This document shows positions 1-50,403 of a stretch of 50,403 nt of DNA, piece by piece. Made by a program: the position numbers and the translations under genes. Source of the stretch: Shigella phage Sfin-1. Positions within the stretch are counted from its first letter, which is position 1. Every line of letters begins with the position of its first letter. The notes below the pieces were generated by a model that was not told the DNA's origin, did no database searches, and saw nothing but the letters and a program-made list of their open reading frames with translations. The stretch lies in sequence record NC_047998.1; one strand, given 5' to 3'.

Positions 1-703
1 TGGAATCGTTAGCCGTCCAATTTACGCTTACGCTACCTGCTGCATCTCCACCAATTGGAGTAAGAACGCCAGATTTTGGATCTATTGTCGCAATATTTTC
101 AGCATCAACAGACCACAGGCCAGTTTTATCGGTGGCGTTGTCAGGTTTTACAGCAACGTTAAATTGCACAGGTGCATTGTTTGGCTGAGGACTCTCCTTG
201 TTAGTTGTAATCGTCGCAGACTCAACAAGAACCACAGGAGGGGGTGGAGGTGGAACAATGAAGGCATTTCGCTTAACCTGTACCTCAATAATGTACCCGT
301 CCTCGTGCTTAACAAACCCACCAGCAAATGTCCAACCTACGGAACCAGAGCTACCAGTAACAACACCACCAGATCCAAATTGTAACTTTGAGAATAAGGC
401 CGGAGCTTCATCAAGAGAAGTGAGCGTCCACATTCGACCATGAGAAACGACGTTGCAAACTTCACCGTCGAGGATTTTACCGCTCAGGTGTTCATATTGG
501 GAACGGAAAGCGATTCCGTAAGGTGTTGCACCATCAGTAAGCGTGGAAACAACCTTAACTCCGTCAACAATACCGACAACTTTAACAGCAGCGCCGAACT
601 CAATATCACCTTTAGCAACACAAGATCCATCAATATTGTAGTTTGAAGTATCCGAAAGATTACCAGGGCACGCCGGGCGTAACATTAAATTTTCGTAAGG
701 CAT
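1..703 (-). CDS. Head decoration-like structural protein with C-terminal Ig-like (Big_2-type) domain; 5' portion only, continues beyond window start
   Basis: ATG at 703 preceded by GGAG; the ORF runs open to position 1. N-terminal ~110 aa are paralogous to the 764..1240 product (shared SxYNIDG(A/S)CV and GAAV motifs), followed by a PPPPPP linker and an Ig-like segment. In frame with the partial ORF at 50339..50403. Confidence 0.55.
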   Translation of the reverse strand, partial: MPYENLMLRPACPGNLSDTSNYNIDGSCVAKGDIEFGAAVKVVGIVDGVKVVSTLTDGATPYGIAFRSQYEHLSGKILDGEVCNVVSHGRMWTLTSLDEAPALFSKLQFGSGGVVTGSSGSVGWTFAGGFVKHEDGYIIEVQVKRNAFIVPPPPPPVVLVESATITTNKESPQPNNAPVQFNVAVKPDNATDKTGLWSVDAENIATIDPKSGVLTPIGGDAAGSVSVNWTANDS

Positions 704-717
704 AGTATTTTCTCCAT

Positions 718-747
718 AAAAAAAGGACTATCCAAAAAGGATAGTCC
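718..747 (-). terminator. Intrinsic terminator (hairpin GGACTATCC/GGATAGTCC plus U7) after the 158-aa head gene
   Basis: Perfect 9-bp stem with 5-nt loop, followed on the minus strand by a run of 7 T. Confidence 0.6.
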
Positions 748-763
748 CCATATTAAACACTAA

Positions 764-1240
764 TTACAGTTGATGCAACTGAACTTCAACAAGCTGAATG
801 TCTTTATATTTGGTCCAACCGCCAGCGTAGGTCCAAGTGGTTTCGATCGTACCGTCAGATTTCTCTTGACCGTCAACGTCAAGTTTTACAGCGCCCCCGA
901 AAGTTGGCGCCTCTTCTGATTTGGAAAGCATCCAAACTCTACCGGAGGTAATCACGTTGATAGCGCCGCCATCTTCGTAAATCATCTGATTATCTTTATT
1001 CACAGTCTGCCAGTGAGATCGAATAGCTACGCCATACGGCACTTTAGACGATTCCATAGCCTTAACCAATTTATGGCCATCAACGGCTTGGGCTTGAACA
1101 ACCTGTACGGCGGCGCCAACAAAAACATCACCTTCGTTAACGACGCAAGCGCCATCAATATTATACTTCGAAGTATCCGCAACCATACCCGGAAGCGCAA
1201 TAGCCATGTCTCGCTGATAAGATGCATTAATCTGTGCCAT
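764..1240 (-). CDS. Head decoration-like structural protein (158 aa), paralog of the 1..703 N-terminal domain
   Basis: AAGGGG RBS upstream of the ATG; sits between the scaffold-like gene and the capsid gene; followed by a terminator. Confidence 0.55.
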   Translation of the reverse strand: MAQINASYQRDMAIALPGMVADTSKYNIDGACVVNEGDVFVGAAVQVVQAQAVDGHKLVKAMESSKVPYGVAIRSHWQTVNKDNQMIYEDGGAINVITSGRVWMLSKSEEAPTFGGAVKLDVDGQEKSDGTIETTWTYAGGWTKYKDIQLVEVQLHQL

Positions 1241-1251
1241 GATATTTCCCC

Positions 1252-2364
1252 TTACATTACTTTGCTTAAACGTGAATTTGGCGTAACAGGCGCGGCGTCG
1301 TTTTTCTCTTCCGGCTTACCACCTTCGATAGAATCGCCTTTTACCGCCTTACGCTGAATAGCCATAATATCAGAATCCTTAGCAACATCAAACATAGCGT
1401 CGATATATGCGTCTGATTTTTCGCTAACATCTTTATCAAGCATAGCTTTGACAACAGCGACCTTAACGTCTTTGATATCAAGACCATCATGCTTAACGCC
1501 TGCGGTTTCCGCTACTGCGGTTACTTCAGCACGCGCTGCGGCGTCAGCTTTTTGCTTCTCTACTTCGGCCTTCACCAGTTCCGGCAGGGAGTCAACCTTA
1601 ACCTTCAGCGCATCGCGCTCAGCTTCGAAGCCATCAGCTTTTCCCTGAATGGTGGCAATCTGCGCGGTTAATTTTTCGATATGGTTCGCAACATCTTCGG
1701 TTACTTCCACATCAACTGAGTCGATCTTAATTTTCTTCATTTGCTTGTCCTCGTTAGTTAATTGAACGTTATTATCATACGGGAATTCCTGCTCAGCATC
1801 AAGATTTAATTTGGCAATTCCCGCGCGACCTTTAAAAACCAGAGCAATATGGTTGACCTTGATATTAGTCTGTACAGCATCGAATTTAACCCAACCTTCA
1901 GGCGGCTCTTCGTCCTGTTTCATATCCTCTTCGAAGATATATTCTCCAGTCTCATTTGAACCCCACCCCGGTTTATCAATATCTACTGACGTGTAGCCAA
2001 CAGATAATTCACCAGCTTCTTTTGCTTTAGCCTTGCTGATCGCGTAGTCGCTGTAAATGCTCAAAGGGACTTCAACTCCAACACCTGAAGCAATACCAGC
2101 GCCAGCGCACGATCCTACAACAACGTCCTTAGCATTTTGGGGGGTTACCGTTACGTGACCGACTGTGATCGGCTTGCCTGCAAAACTTTGCAAGGAATCT
2201 TGCTTGAAAACTTCGGACGCCGGACGGAACTCAACTCGATCGCCGTGGGGAGTCTTGTAAACCTGAGCACCGATTCGTGCCACAATGGGGCGGTCAACCA
2301 AAAAACCATTATCATCAAAGTGCGCCTTGATTTTTACTGAATCGAATCTTTGCTTTGCCTTCAT
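1252..2364 (-). CDS. Prohead scaffold/protease-like protein (globular N-terminal domain plus charged coiled-coil C-terminal half)
   Basis: Internal ATG at 2364 with GGAG RBS; C-terminal half is K/E/A/D-rich like a scaffold; position is immediately downstream of portal and minor head genes. Confidence 0.45.
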   Translation of the reverse strand: MKAKQRFDSVKIKAHFDDNGFLVDRPIVARIGAQVYKTPHGDRVEFRPASEVFKQDSLQSFAGKPITVGHVTVTPQNAKDVVVGSCAGAGIASGVGVEVPLSIYSDYAISKAKAKEAGELSVGYTSVDIDKPGWGSNETGEYIFEEDMKQDEEPPEGWVKFDAVQTNIKVNHIALVFKGRAGIAKLNLDAEQEFPYDNNVQLTNEDKQMKKIKIDSVDVEVTEDVANHIEKLTAQIATIQGKADGFEAERDALKVKVDSLPELVKAEVEKQKADAAARAEVTAVAETAGVKHDGLDIKDVKVAVVKAMLDKDVSEKSDAYIDAMFDVAKDSDIMAIQRKAVKGDSIEGGKPEEKNDAAPVTPNSRLSKVM

Positions 2365-2366
2365 TT

Positions 2367-3026
2367 TTAATCTCCTGTGGAAAAGTCTGGAACAGCCCAA
2401 CAGCGGCAATTGTATTCTTCACCCGGAAATACGTGATCGGAATCTACCGCTATACGCTTACCTTCCCATCTTACATGTTTTTCACGTTCGCGTAAATCCA
2501 TCACCCCTCGCCAGAAATAATAAGAGACACCAGCGTCTTTTATGCGCTGCCGCATTAGTCTACTGTTCCAGGTTCCGACAATTCCCGATGCTCTATTTTT
2601 GGCCCAATTCCGGTAAATACCAAATCGCTCCTTAGCAAGTTCAACAACAAAATCCTTGCTTTTACCCTGACCGGATGCCGCACGAAGTTTATCAGTGAAA
2701 TCAGTAACCATGTTGGCGGCAAATTTCCTGATAGAAGTAGTCACCTGCGATCGCCACAGATTATATTGTCCTGAGTACCAACTTTCGGCAGCGGTAGGAC
2801 CAATCAGGGCAAGTAGCATCACGGCTTGATTCTTCTTACCTCCAGCATTGCGAGCGATGCGCAGCCACTGCTTAGAGTTGAATTTATAGATCGTGAGCGC
2901 AACGGATGATAGAGAACCGATAATCGGCGCGATGAGTGATTCAACGTAATTAAGCAATGACCTTTCTGCCTGATCTATCTCTTCGTCGGTAGCATCAAAT
3001 TTCATCAGCTTTAATTCGTCGCGCAT
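2367..3026 (-). CDS. Minor head / head morphogenesis protein (Mu F / SPP1 gp7-like)
   Basis: C-terminal motif ...YNCRCWAVP... typical of the Mu F-like family; located just after portal. Confidence 0.65.
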   Translation of the reverse strand: MRDELKLMKFDATDEEIDQAERSLLNYVESLIAPIIGSLSSVALTIYKFNSKQWLRIARNAGGKKNQAVMLLALIGPTAAESWYSGQYNLWRSQVTTSIRKFAANMVTDFTDKLRAASGQGKSKDFVVELAKERFGIYRNWAKNRASGIVGTWNSRLMRQRIKDAGVSYYFWRGVMDLREREKHVRWEGKRIAVDSDHVFPGEEYNCRCWAVPDFSTGD

Positions 3027-3116
3027 TTTTCAGTTAGTTTGGCTGCAATATCCTGTAGGGAGCGCGACATTGCGCGCTCGCTCATTTCAGGATAGCGCCA
3101 CTGAGTAGCAACGCCA

Positions 3117-48919: not shown

Positions 48920-48943
48920 AAAAAAAGGCGCTACATGAGCGCC
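48920..48943 (-). terminator. Intrinsic terminator (GGCGCT-CATG-AGCGCC plus U7)
   Basis: Hairpin and T-run on the minus strand. Confidence 0.55.
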
Positions 48944-48950
48944 TTGATGA

Positions 48951-49238
48951 TTAATATTCGCCGCCGTCCTCAAGTTCTTTAACACTTTTACTATCCCACG
49001 GATCAGGCTTTTTAAGTTTAGCCATCTCTGCGCGGATTTTCCGGTTGGTGGCACTGTCGTCTTTTACTTCGATTTCTTCGCGAGCAATCAAGCAACGCAG
49101 CCCAGGCAATTCAAGTGCGGATGCTGGGAGTGTCACCTCTTCATCCGGGAGAACCTTTGCGAATGAGCCATCTTCAAGACGGAACATCTGAAGCGCCACA
49201 CCAACGTTTACGATAACAACAGTTTTTTCTTTAGCCAT
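48951..49238 (-). CDS. Hypothetical head-associated protein (95 aa)
   Basis: ORF between two terminators just downstream of the capsid gene. Confidence 0.4.
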   Translation of the reverse strand: MAKEKTVVIVNVGVALQMFRLEDGSFAKVLPDEEVTLPASALELPGLRCLIAREEIEVKDDSATNRKIRAEMAKLKKPDPWDSKSVKELEDGGEY

Positions 49239-49253
49239 TTTGATTTCTCCAAT

Positions 49254-49280
49254 AAAAAAGGGACCAACTAAGTTAGTCCC
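49254..49280 (-). terminator. Intrinsic terminator after the major capsid gene
   Basis: GGGAC...GTCCC hairpin followed by U6 on the minus strand. Confidence 0.6.
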
Positions 49281-49287
49281 TATAATA

Positions 49288-50247
49288 TTACACGCCAGTG
49301 ATTAAGACAATAGTCATCGGACGATAAATTGTAAGGCCAGTACACTTGGAGGTGCAAGGCACTTTGAAGTGCAGATCTTTCGGCTGTGCTGGCAGCATGT
49401 TAAATGCTTCCGGGATCTCGATGGACATATTCATCGGATTCTTTTCGTACACCAGCACGCCTTTAGTTCCAGCGCCATCGATATCTTCAAGTTCTGCGAT
49501 AGAGTCAATTTCGATACCAGCATTCTGAGACTTGAAATAGTCCAGATAAGACATAGTGGTTTCAGGCATACGAATAGCCAAAACCTTACGCATGGACGGC
49601 GGGATCAGAATATTGGTTGCTCGGTGCTGTCCGCGAGTAATCGTCTCGATGGTTTCGATGGCCTGAGTTAGTTCAGCTTCAGCCGTTTCTGGTTTTTGGC
49701 TAACTCCATCAATCCACTTACCTGAGGTAATTTTGGTGATGTTCGGATGGTTGAACACAGACACGATCTTGTGCGGTGCGGAGCCTTTGAACACCAGACG
49801 GTTAACCAGTTGGTCATGCGCTAGCTGACACGCACTTGCCTTGCGGGTTGACAGCGGTCGACCAGTTGCCTGACCTGCTTTGATTTCGTCGATTGAAATC
49901 AGGTACGCGTTACCCAAGCGGAACACCTTTCCGAACTCAGAAGTGCCAAGCGCATCAACCAGAGGCAGGTCATCGGTATAGTCAGCGATAATCTGCGCAG
50001 TACCAACCTTATCAAAGGTCATGTACTCAAACGTCTTGTCGGTCGGAGAGAGATCGGTTGTAACCGGGAACACACGGAGAGCAGAACCTGCCGGGTAGTC
50101 CTCTTCGTAAGACTGGCTCTTGATGCGGTGTAGCTCCTGAGCGGTCCAGATACCCATAGTTGCTGCTGCATCCTGTTTTACGCCAGCTTGGATCAGGTAC
50201 ATTTCAATATTGCTTTTATCTGCTTCATCAAATTTTTTAGTAGTCAT
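49288..50247 (-). CDS. Major capsid protein (lambda gpE-like fold, putative)
   Basis: 319 aa, AAGGAG RBS, terminator immediately downstream, position upstream of the head-tail connector genes. Confidence 0.75.
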   Translation of the reverse strand: MTTKKFDEADKSNIEMYLIQAGVKQDAAATMGIWTAQELHRIKSQSYEEDYPAGSALRVFPVTTDLSPTDKTFEYMTFDKVGTAQIIADYTDDLPLVDALGTSEFGKVFRLGNAYLISIDEIKAGQATGRPLSTRKASACQLAHDQLVNRLVFKGSAPHKIVSVFNHPNITKITSGKWIDGVSQKPETAEAELTQAIETIETITRGQHRATNILIPPSMRKVLAIRMPETTMSYLDYFKSQNAGIEIDSIAELEDIDGAGTKGVLVYEKNPMNMSIEIPEAFNMLPAQPKDLHFKVPCTSKCTGLTIYRPMTIVLITGV

Positions 50248-50302
50248 GATTACTTCTCCTTAGTTAATAAAAAAAGCGTGATTATGTTCACGGCTTCAAT
50301 AA

Positions 50303-50320
50303 TAGCACTTTTTGTTAAAG
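50303..50320 (+). promoter_or_regulatory. Isolated dyad element copy (TAGCACTTTTTGTTAAAG) upstream of the capsid gene, antisense orientation
   Basis: Sequence match to the early-cassette dyad between the capsid start and the upstream gene stop. Confidence 0.35.
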
Positions 50321-50338
50321 CGTCAAAGTGTTTTTGTG

Positions 50339-50403
50339 TTATGACTCTTCTTCTTCGGCTGGCACAGCATCAAAGACATAAGTGATCGATTCTTTAGTTT
50401 TGC
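50339..50403 (-). CDS. 3' end of a structural gene (acidic C-terminus ...AEEEES); probably the C-terminus of the Ig-domain protein whose 5' part is at 1..703
   Basis: ORF open from the window end to the TAA at 50339..50341; reading frame is continuous with the 1..703 ORF if the two window ends are joined. Confidence 0.45.
   Translation of the reverse strand, partial: KTKESITYVFDAVPAEEEES

What the first reader, a model, noticed from the sequence alone, without database searches (positions are those of the whole stretch)
1..2364. Head module has two paralogous decoration-like proteins, one with an Ig-like domain, between scaffold and capsid genes
The 158-aa protein (764..1240) and the N-terminal domain of the Ig-domain protein (1..703) are clear paralogs. 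They occupy the slot where lambda-like phages encode a decoration protein. A duplicated decoration module with a surface Ig-like domain could mediate carbohydrate adhesion of the capsid.
Basis: inference. Interest (0 to 1): 0.4.

Follow-up and report, generated by a model that had tools for sequence, protein, structure and literature searches.

The report
Known T1-type paired capsid cement proteins
The two related genes are real, but they are the already-described capsid "cement" proteins of T1-like phages (T1 gp49 and gp48, which carries an Ig-like domain), whose place on the capsid was solved by cryo-EM in 2025, so the finding is correct and not new.

Summary
On the minus strand, a 158-aa protein (1240→764) and the N-terminal ~150 aa of the next protein (703→1) are paralogs (39% identity, E=1e-29). 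Both match Pfam Phage_cement (PF22758), and the second ends in a Big_2 Ig-like domain.

The second gene is cut by the window edge. It continues at 50403→50339 to give 255 aa, and the capsid gene follows at 50247→49288. The window is therefore a circularly permuted, complete T1-like phage genome (Tunavirus), about 100% identical over the first 6 kb to Shigella phages Sfin-2/4/5/6.

The two proteins are orthologs of T1 gp49 and gp48, and of FCWL1 gp28 and gp29. These have solved virion structures (PDB 9KZJ, 9KMG, 9KMH). The T=7 head carries 80 gp49 homotrimers and 60 heterotrimers of one gp48 and two gp49, all with a β-tulip fold like λ gpD. The Ig domain protrudes and is flexible.

The decoration-protein reading is therefore supported and already published. 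Carbohydrate adhesion remains untested.

My additions are modest:
- The Ig segment is a mosaic hot spot (52–69% identity between allele classes, against 96–100% for neighbouring head proteins).
- A conserved terminator-like hairpin precedes the Ig-paralog gene, and a promoter-like site follows it. This fits the 6:1 dosage but is only inferred.

The parts
1252..2364 (-).
   Evidence: Pfam PF09979, E=7e-26. phrog_530 'head maturation protease', E=3.8e-108. 98-100% aa identity to Tunavirus relatives.
764..1240 (-). 158-aa cement/decoration protein, ortholog of T1 gp49 and FCWL1 gp28
   Evidence: PF22758, E=2.9e-29. PDB 9KMG/9KMH/9KZJ 'Decoration protein | cement protein II', 158 aa, E=2e-95. About 92% identity to T1.
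723..749 (-). Terminator-like hairpin (GGGGACTATCC-loop-GGATAGTCC followed by a T-run) between the two paralog genes, just upstream of the GGAG ribosome-binding site of the Ig-paralog
   Evidence: Terminator scan. RNA fold -19.3 kcal/mol, z=-4.7, 0 of 200 shuffles as stable. Present in all 15 Tunavirus sequences compared (window plus 14 loci); the few stem changes I noted by eye (A to G, C to T) appear to keep pairing through G-U, which was not tested formally. Annotated as a rho-independent terminator in the SA12KD record.
254..703 (-). N-terminal cement domain (residues 1-150) of the 255-aa Ig-bearing paralog, ortholog of T1 gp48 and FCWL1 gp29
   Evidence: PF22758, E=2.2e-17. 39% identity to the 158-aa paralog. 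87-95% identity to Tunavirus orthologs. T1 gp48 residues 2-153 are modelled in the cryo-EM map.
236..253 (-). Six-proline linker (residues 151-156) between the cement domain and the Ig-like domain
   Evidence: Read directly from the sequence and its translation.
1..235 (-). Big_2 Ig-like domain, first part (residues 157-234 plus one base of codon 235)
   Evidence: PF02368 at residues 163-238, 29.1 bits. A profile of this domain hits the Ig-like domains of the DT57C and T5 pb6 tail-tube proteins, E=3e-11 to 2e-7.
50339..50403 (-). Last 21 codons plus the stop codon of the 255-aa gene, across the circular junction of the window
   Evidence: In-frame continuation. The full 255 aa is 100% identical and contiguous in phi2457T (H26).
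50299..50326 (-). Sigma-70-like promoter (TTGACG, 16-nt spacer, TATTAT, with TG) between the Ig-paralog stop codon and the capsid gene
   Evidence: 10 of 12 consensus matches. Unchanged in all 15 Tunavirus sequences compared. Annotated as a promoter in the SA12KD record.
50277..50292 (-). Short hairpin plus T-run immediately after the promoter-like site and upstream of the capsid gene's ribosome-binding site
   Evidence: Terminator scan. Relatives have a 7-bp GCCGTGA/TCACGGC stem; the window lacks one G. The fold of the 93-nt intergenic stretch containing it is not significant (z=-0.8). SA12KD annotates it as a terminator.
49288..50247 (-). 319-aa HK97-fold major capsid protein (T1 gp47 ortholog)
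   Evidence: PF09950, E=6e-63. PDB 9KMG_A and 9KZJ_A, E about 1e-209.
49259..49281 (-). Terminator-like hairpin after the capsid gene
   Evidence: Terminator scan. Fold z=-2.6. Annotated in SA12KD.

Best explanation
These are the two paralogous cement (decoration) proteins of a T1-like siphophage head.

The 158-aa protein (gp49 type) forms β-tulip trimers. They sit on the threefold and quasi-threefold junctions between capsomers of the T=7 HK97-fold shell and clamp them together. In T1 its N-terminal arm reaches the inner surface of the shell.

The 255-aa paralog (gp48 type) replaces one subunit in 60 of the 140 trimers, giving heterotrimers of one gp48 and two gp49. It binds only the outer surface. 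Through a six-proline linker it displays one flexible Big_2 Ig-like domain per heterotrimer, about 60 per head.

From the published counts I deduce that the heterotrimers occupy the penton-adjacent sites, which would place five Ig domains around each vertex. T1 shows four homotrimers and two heterotrimers around each hexon. A T=7 hexon has exactly two penton-adjacent trimer sites, one site on the icosahedral threefold axis and three other sites.

Shown, through solved structures of close orthologs: presence in the virion, fold, trimer types and stoichiometry.

Inferred:
(a) The same arrangement holds in this phage.
(b) The heterotrimers are penton-adjacent.
(c) The 6:1 dosage is helped by the conserved terminator-like hairpin in front of the gp48-type gene and a separate promoter-like site for the capsid gene.
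(d) The Ig domain gives weak, accessory adhesion to surface polymers.
For: - Paralogy and domains.
- Solved structures of orthologs: 9KZJ (T1) and 9KMG/9KMH (assigned to FCWL1 from the matching gp29 name in its GenBank record), with E=2e-95 for the 158-aa protein and E about 1e-133 for the 255-aa protein. The matching capsid protein gives E about 1e-209.
- The chain counts match the ratio expected for an asymmetric unit: 7 capsid-protein chains and 1 gp48 chain in 9KZJ.
- Published T1 description: 415 gp47, 80 gp49 homotrimers, 60 heterotrimers (1 gp48 + 2 gp49), β-tulip fold like λ gpD, gp49 N-arm embedded in the shell, gp48 C-terminus a weak protruding density (PMC11945409).
- The GenBank records of FCWL1 and T1 already name these genes 'decoration protein' and 'IgG-domain-containing decoration protein'.
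- Synteny is identical in 14 related loci.
- Five gp29 chains in 9KMH fit a fivefold ring.
- The regulatory signals are conserved.
Against: - No structure or proteomics exists for this particular phage.
- Its Ig segment is only about 52-60% identical to that of T1 and FCWL1.
- The penton-adjacent placement is my deduction from counts in a figure legend, not a statement I could read in either paper. The FCWL1 paper is not held.
- The dosage-by-terminator idea is not supported by any expression data. The capsid gene lies downstream of the same hairpin and needs high expression, so the idea depends on the promoter-like site being active.
- My single-sequence AlphaFold model was uninformative (pLDDT 35).
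Confidence: 0.9

Rival explanations
1. The Ig-like domain is a carbohydrate adhesin, as the first reader proposed and the T1 authors suggested. About 60 flexible Big_2 domains would bind host-surface or mucus glycans reversibly and so raise the rate at which the phage meets its host. The cement domain would serve only as the anchor.
For: - The domain is exposed on a six-proline linker.
- It is homologous to Ig-like domains that decorate the T5 and DT57C tail tubes.
- It is the fastest-evolving segment of the head module. dN is 0.26-0.28 against 0.002-0.07 for the other head genes and the cement domains.
- At least three to four allele classes occur among 80 Tunavirus records, as expected for a part that contacts the environment.
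- The T1 authors suggest a role in adsorption.
Against: - No binding or adsorption data were found.
- dN/dS is 0.15-0.17 and dS is saturated (1.6-1.8). This points to exchange of old alleles rather than measurable positive selection.
- Allele class does not follow host. Shigella flexneri phages carry both the window type (Sfin-5, phi2457T) and the T1 type (Sfin-3, pSf-2), and E. coli phages carry all classes.
- Some T1-like phages manage with a single cement gene and no Ig domain, for example OzMSK.
Confidence: 0.35
2. The 255-aa paralog is mainly a geometric specialist. Its diverged cement domain fits the one trimer position that faces a penton subunit. The Ig domain would then be a passenger with no adhesion role, serving for example solubility or assembly marking.
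For: - The 1:2 heterotrimers occur at only one class of quasi-threefold site.
- gp48 lacks the shell-penetrating N-arm contact of gp49.
- The N-terminal segment before the conserved PG motif is shorter and unrelated in sequence.
- The short and long pair is conserved in Tunavirinae and Tempevirinae.
- Short paralogs remain 45-59% identical across subfamilies, while the long paralogs' cement domains are only about 35% identical.
Against: - The Ig domain is retained in all 178 phage records that cover at least 80% of the protein.
- It keeps invariant motifs (ATDKTG-W, NW-AND) across subfamilies, which argues for selection on the domain itself.
- This explanation is compatible with the adhesin role rather than exclusive of it.
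Confidence: 0.25
3. The two genes are redundant recent duplicates, either of which can decorate the capsid alone.
For: They share a fold and family. Some relatives have only one such gene.
Against: - They are only 39% identical.
- The pair is conserved across two subfamilies.
- The solved T1 capsid shows a fixed division of labour, with no gp48 homotrimers.
Confidence: 0.03

Closest known systems
Phage T1 gp49 and gp48 (PDB 9KZJ; Chen et al. 2025, Viruses 17:351, PMC11945409)
   Same: - Same gene order: protease, short cement protein, Ig-bearing cement protein, capsid protein.
- Same protein lengths (158 and 255 aa).
- 92% identity for the short protein and 77% for the long one, with 88% in its cement domain.
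- Same family of phages (Tunavirus).
   Different: The Ig segment is only about 52-60% identical and belongs to a different allele class. A small patch of the 158-aa protein (residues about 46-88) also differs.
Phage FCWL1 gp28 and gp29 (PDB 9KMG, 9KMH; Cai et al. 2025, Structure 33:663, cited in PMC13033339)
   Same: - Same two genes, annotated 'decoration protein' and 'IgG-domain-containing decoration protein'.
- The gp28 sequence is the same distinct sequence as T1 gp49.
   Different: The Ig allele is of the T1 type (54.5% identity over the variable 80 aa). I could not read the paper.
Pfam PF22758 Phage_cement: Pseudomonas phage E217 gp24 and cyanophage Pam3 gp6 (PDB 8HDT); also XM1 gp53 (PF23982)
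   Same: - Sequence family membership is above the gathering score for both paralogs.
- Pam3's 'Cement' protein is hit at E=1e-4, and its capsid protein at E=6e-19.
   Different: In Pam3, the only one of these phages whose solved structure I searched, I saw just one cement protein sequence (166 aa) and no Big_2 match. I did not examine E217 or XM1, which are known here only from the Pfam family names. The paired heterotrimer arrangement was described for T1.
Phage λ gpD
   Same: It occupies the same genomic slot between the protease/scaffold and capsid genes. It is a trimeric β-tulip cement protein at threefold and quasi-threefold sites, a fold similarity stated by the T1 authors.
   Different: No detectable sequence similarity: no gpD family hit at E≤0.1. 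λ has a single protein, only homotrimers, no Ig domain and no arm that penetrates the shell.
Capsid Ig-display proteins T5 pb10 and T4 Hoc (from my own knowledge, apart from the T5 citation in the T1 paper)
   Same: A capsid-binding domain is combined with exposed Ig-like domain(s), and an accessory adhesion role has been proposed.
   Different: - pb10 and Hoc bind hexon centres as monomers and do not act as cement.
- Neither was hit in the PDB sequence search at E≤1.
- Here the anchor is a cement-protein paralog built into a heterotrimer.

Membership tests
Pfam PF22758 Phage_cement (E217 gp24 / Pam3 gp6) | HMM score above the curated gathering cut-off (27 bits) across most of the model | tested here: met
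   The 158-aa protein scores 102.5 bits over model positions 1-145 of 146. The 255-aa protein scores 64.0 bits over positions 9-145 of 146.
T1 gp49/gp48 cement pair (Tunavirus) | Orthology: high identity over the full length to the proteins in the solved virion structures | tested here: met
   E=2e-95 over residues 1-158, and E about 1e-133 over residues 1-252/253. Identities to T1 are 92% for the short protein, and 88% (cement domain) and 60% (Ig domain) for the long one.
T1 gp49/gp48 cement pair (Tunavirus) | Synteny: protease, short cement, Ig-bearing cement, major capsid protein | tested here: met
   The order is the same in the window and in 14 related loci including T1 (L012) and FCWL1 (L002).
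T1 gp49/gp48 cement pair (Tunavirus) | Assembly as 80 homotrimers plus 60 heterotrimers (1:2) on a T=7 capsid | not testable with these tools
   Known for T1. For this phage it is inferred from orthology only.
β-tulip trimeric decoration proteins (λ gpD-like fold) | β-tulip fold | tested here: inconclusive
   The fold is established experimentally for the 88-92% identical T1 orthologs.
λ gpD sequence family | Detectable sequence homology to gpD | tested here: not met
   No gpD family appears among the Pfam hits at E≤0.1 or among the PDB hits at E≤1.
Pfam PF02368 Big_2 (bacterial Ig-like domain, group 2) | HMM score above the gathering cut-off (22.8 bits) | tested here: met
   29.1 bits, E=9.8e-7, residues 163-238. 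A profile of nine orthologous domains hits the solved Ig-like domains of the DT57C (E=3e-11) and T5 pb6 (E=1.5e-7) tail-tube proteins and of BglH.
Capsid-displayed glycan adhesins (Hoc-like function) | Demonstrated binding of the Ig-like domain to carbohydrate or the host surface | not testable with these tools
   I found only a suggestion in the T1 paper and no data.

The most novel reading that the evidence does not exclude
The Ig-like segment of the gp48-type cement protein may be an exchangeable cassette. At least three to four allele classes, 46-69% identical to each other's type, sit in an otherwise 96-100% identical head module. The cassette would tune environment- or host-specific adhesion. 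Its copy number, 60 per head with five around each vertex, would be set in part by a conserved intrinsic terminator in front of the gene and a dedicated promoter for the capsid gene behind it. I saw neither point in the T1 paper; I could not read the FCWL1 paper.
Probability: 0.25. Interest if true: 0.35.

Novelty: already known. Interest (0 to 1): 0.1.

Why it matters
The finding matters little as a discovery. The paired cement proteins of T1-like phages, their heterotrimer arrangement and the exposed Ig-like domain were published in 2025 with atomic models, and GenBank records already carry the names.

The practical value here is correct annotation of this Shigella phage. In the closest records (Sfin-2/4/5/6, phi2457T) these genes are still labelled 'hypothetical protein'.

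There is also a small lead. The Ig segment is a mosaic, fast-evolving cassette flanked by conserved transcription signals. That makes it a natural place to test capsid-mediated adhesion, or to engineer display, in therapeutic T1-like phages.

Tried and rejected
- The 234-aa window fragment, folded without an alignment, gave a useless model (mean pLDDT 34.8, pTM 0.21). I ran no fold search on it.
- Sequence matches to solved structures had already settled identity, and a deeper alignment would not have changed the verdict.
- The FCWL1 structure paper (doi 10.1016/j.str.2025.01.012) is not held. Its content is known to me only from its title, the PDB molecule names and the GenBank annotation.
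- The Sfin-2/Sfin-6 paper contains no virion proteomics.
- I considered whether Ig allele class tracks host (Shigella against E. coli) and rejected it.
- I considered plain positive selection on the Ig domain and rejected it. dN/dS is 0.15-0.17 with saturated dS, which points to old alleles exchanged by recombination.
- I considered whether the second hairpin (50292→50277) is a significant structure. Over the 93-nt intergenic stretch that contains it, folding is no better than shuffled controls (z=-0.8).
Full report
**What is in the sequence.**
All head genes in this part of the window lie on the minus strand. In order of transcription they are:

| Gene | Coordinates | Evidence |
|---|---|---|
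| Large terminase | 6025→4457 | by relatives' annotation |
| Portal | 4400→3117 | by relatives' annotation |
| Mu F-like head-morphogenesis gene | 3026→2367 | PF04233, phrog_324 |
| 370-aa DUF2213 protein | 2364→1252 | PF09979; phrog_530 'head maturation protease', E=3.8e-108; helical, charged C-terminal half |
| 158-aa protein | 1240→764 | see below |
| ORF that starts at 703 | 703→1, runs off the window start | see below |

Joining the end of the window to its start continues that last ORF in frame for 21 codons plus a stop (50403→50339). The result is a 255-aa protein. This protein is 100% identical and contiguous in Shigella phage phi2457T (H26). The next gene, 50247→49288, is the 319-aa major capsid protein (PF09950, E=6e-63).

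**Check of the observation.**
The 158-aa protein and residues 11-145 of the 255-aa protein are 39% identical (E=1e-29). Both exceed the gathering score of Pfam PF22758, 'Structural cement protein (E217 gp24/Pam3 gp6)', and both also match PF23982 (XM1 gp53). The longer protein has a six-proline linker (residues 151-156) followed by a Big_2 Ig-like domain (PF02368, 29.1 bits against a cut-off of 22.8, residues 163-238). A profile built from nine orthologous C-terminal domains hits the solved Ig-like domains of the DT57C and T5 pb6 tail-tube proteins (E=3e-11 to 2e-7).

**What it is.**
The first 6 kb of the window is about 100% identical to Shigella phages Sfin-2, -4, -5 and -6, and 91-98% identical to many Tunavirus (T1-like, Drexlerviridae) genomes.

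A sequence search of the PDB finds close orthologs of all three head proteins in entries 9KZJ, 9KMG and 9KMH:
- the 158-aa 'Decoration protein | cement protein II', E=2e-95;
- the 255-aa 'BIG2 domain-containing protein' and 'Decoration protein gp29', E about 1e-133;
- the 319-aa capsid protein, E about 1e-209.

9KZJ belongs to the cryo-EM study of phage T1 (Chen et al. 2025, PMC11945409). That paper reports the following:
- The T=7 head has 415 copies of gp47.
- gp49 and the N-terminal part of gp48 have a β-tulip fold like λ gpD.
- The C-terminus of gp48 (residues 154-255) is a weak protruding density that the authors modelled with AlphaFold3.

I assign 9KMG and 9KMH to phage FCWL1 because its GenBank record names gp28 'decoration protein' and gp29 'IgG-domain-containing decoration protein', which matches the PDB molecule name. 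The FCWL1 paper is Cai et al. 2025, Structure 33:663, cited in PMC13033339. The T1 GenBank record AY216660 now carries the same name (H132). The 2024 re-annotation of phage TLS also assigned the short homolog as a gpD-like decoration protein.

**How it most likely works.**
By orthology, the 158-aa protein is the general cement of the capsid and the 255-aa protein is a minority subunit. The identities to T1 are 92% for the short protein and 88% for the cement domain of the long one, with identical synteny in 14 related loci. The minority subunit takes one position in 60 of the 140 trimers and so displays about 60 Ig-like domains on proline linkers.

The chain counts in 9KZJ, 7 capsid-protein chains and 1 gp48 chain, match an asymmetric unit.

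I add one deduction. Around each hexon the T1 paper shows four homotrimers and two heterotrimers. In a T=7 lattice each hexon has exactly two penton-adjacent trimer sites, one site on the icosahedral threefold axis and three other hexon-only sites. The heterotrimers must therefore be the penton-adjacent class (5 × 12 = 60). The five gp29 chains in 9KMH fit a ring of five. This is a deduction of mine, not a statement I could read in the papers.

**Regulatory anatomy (inferred function).**
Between the two paralog genes lies a stable hairpin followed by a T-run (749→723). Its folding energy is -19.3 kcal/mol, z=-4.7, and none of 200 shuffles folds as well. It sits directly upstream of the ribosome-binding site of the 255-aa gene.

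Between that gene and the capsid gene lies a sigma-70-like promoter (TTGACG, 16-nt spacer, TATTAT with a TG; 50326→50299), followed by a short hairpin. A further terminator-like hairpin follows the capsid gene (49281→49259).

The first hairpin and the promoter-like site are present in all 15 Tunavirus sequences compared, that is the window plus 14 loci. The few changes in the first hairpin's stem appear by eye to keep pairing through G-U. The SA12KD record annotates the same elements as terminators and a promoter.

This layout would let the gp49-type gene be made in quantity, the gp48-type gene by read-through only, and the capsid gene from its own promoter. That fits a 360:60:415 stoichiometry. 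No expression data support it.

**Evolution.**
Among Tunavirus relatives, amino-acid identities to the window are as follows:

| Protein or domain | Identity to the window |
|---|---|
| Protease, capsid protein, portal, MuF-like protein | 95-100% |
| 158-aa cement protein | 91-99% |
| Cement domain of the long paralog | 87-95% |
| Ig domain of the long paralog | 96% in three loci, 81% in one, 60-63% in the rest |

- Against T1, the Ig part has dN=0.28 and dS=1.8, while neighbouring genes have dS=0.16-0.86 and dN≤0.06. Its dN/dS of 0.15 is about five times that of the capsid protein but well below 1.
- Nucleotide identity to T1 falls to 59-66% from about window position 212, across the junction, to about 50346. 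It returns to 92-97% in the intergenic region.
- Over 80 records, the variable 80 aa fall into classes at ≥88%, 67-69%, 52-56% and about 46% identity to the window. There is no partition by host.
- This is the signature of mosaic exchange of old alleles.

The short and Ig-fused pair also exists in Tempevirinae (Citrobacter phage ElisaCorrea gp1/gp2; Escherichia phage orkinos 11/12). The 45-kb phage OzMSK has a single 169-aa decoration gene. Short paralogs are 45-59% identical across subfamilies, and the long paralogs' cement domains only about 35%. In the phage collection, 806 records match the protein, but only 178 cover at least 80% of it and so include the Ig part.

**Comparison with what is known, and verdict.**
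The window's two genes are members of the T1 gp49/gp48 pair and of Pfam Phage_cement. They work like λ gpD but are not sequence relatives of it. The Ig display resembles T5 pb10 and T4 Hoc in concept, but with a different anchor.

The adhesion idea remains an untested suggestion that the T1 authors also make.

Novelty: already known. Interest: low. The only residual leads are the mosaic Ig cassette and the terminator and promoter that bracket it.

**What failed.**
- The single-sequence model of the 234-aa fragment was uninformative (pLDDT 34.8).
- The FCWL1 paper could not be read.

Noticed in passing
window about 3024-3035 (minus strand), just upstream of the ATG at 3026: The Mu F-like head-morphogenesis gene is split in the window. 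The window has a run of five A (GAAAAATG). Eleven of the related loci, including T1, have six A, and two have AAAGAA. As a result the 253-aa gene of relatives (762 bp in SA12KD, and 762 bp in Sfin-2/-6 per PMC10716491) becomes a 34-codon stub plus the 219-aa ORF 3026→2367. The matches to Sfin-4/-5/-6 span 6001 bases for 6000 query bases, consistent with a single 1-nt gap, though I did not locate that gap. This is probably a homopolymer sequencing error.
   Followed up: partly
window 1-212 and 50346-50403 (minus strand; Ig-like domain of the 255-aa protein): This segment is a sharp divergence hot spot. It is 59-66% nt identical to T1, while the flanks are 92-97%. dS is saturated. At least three to four allele classes occur among 80 Tunavirus records, with no host partition. 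The segment looks like a recombining cassette.
   Followed up: yes
window about 977-1104 (minus strand; residues about 46-88 of the 158-aa cement protein): A second, smaller divergence patch, 66-72% nt identical to T1, Sfin-3 and Shfl1, inside an otherwise 86-99% identical gene. The amino-acid changes cluster at AMESSKVPYG against ALTTGTTPYG, and VNKDNQ against VNAQNQ. It may be a surface loop.
   Followed up: partly
L005 4469-4795 (Shigella phage Shfl1, Ig-like domain): The Shfl1 ortholog is 266 aa rather than 255 aa. Inside the Ig-like domain, the 12-residue motif KPDNATNKTGVW appears twice, offset by 11 residues.
   Followed up: no
window 723-749, 50277-50326, 49259-49281, 48925-48945 (minus strand): Nearly every gene of the head module is followed by a terminator-like hairpin, and a promoter-like site sits in front of the capsid gene. 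The SA12KD record annotates the same pattern, and also terminators after the terminase genes. This is an unusually punctuated late operon, and no expression data were found.
   Followed up: partly
L016 (Shigella phage vB_SsoS_008, IMG/VR copy), whole head module: Head-gene matches are fragmented and of low identity: protease 57%, MuF-like protein 50%, and the Ig-bearing protein in four pieces. This suggests many frameshifts or a poor-quality sequence in that record.
   Followed up: no
window 48951-49238 (minus strand): A 95-aa DUF7444 protein (PF24231, E=3.8e-31; phrog_2716, unknown function) is conserved directly after the capsid gene in every Tunavirus locus compared that extends that far. 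It has its own flanking terminator-like hairpins. It is not among the proteins for which atomic models were built in the T1 structure paper.
   Followed up: no
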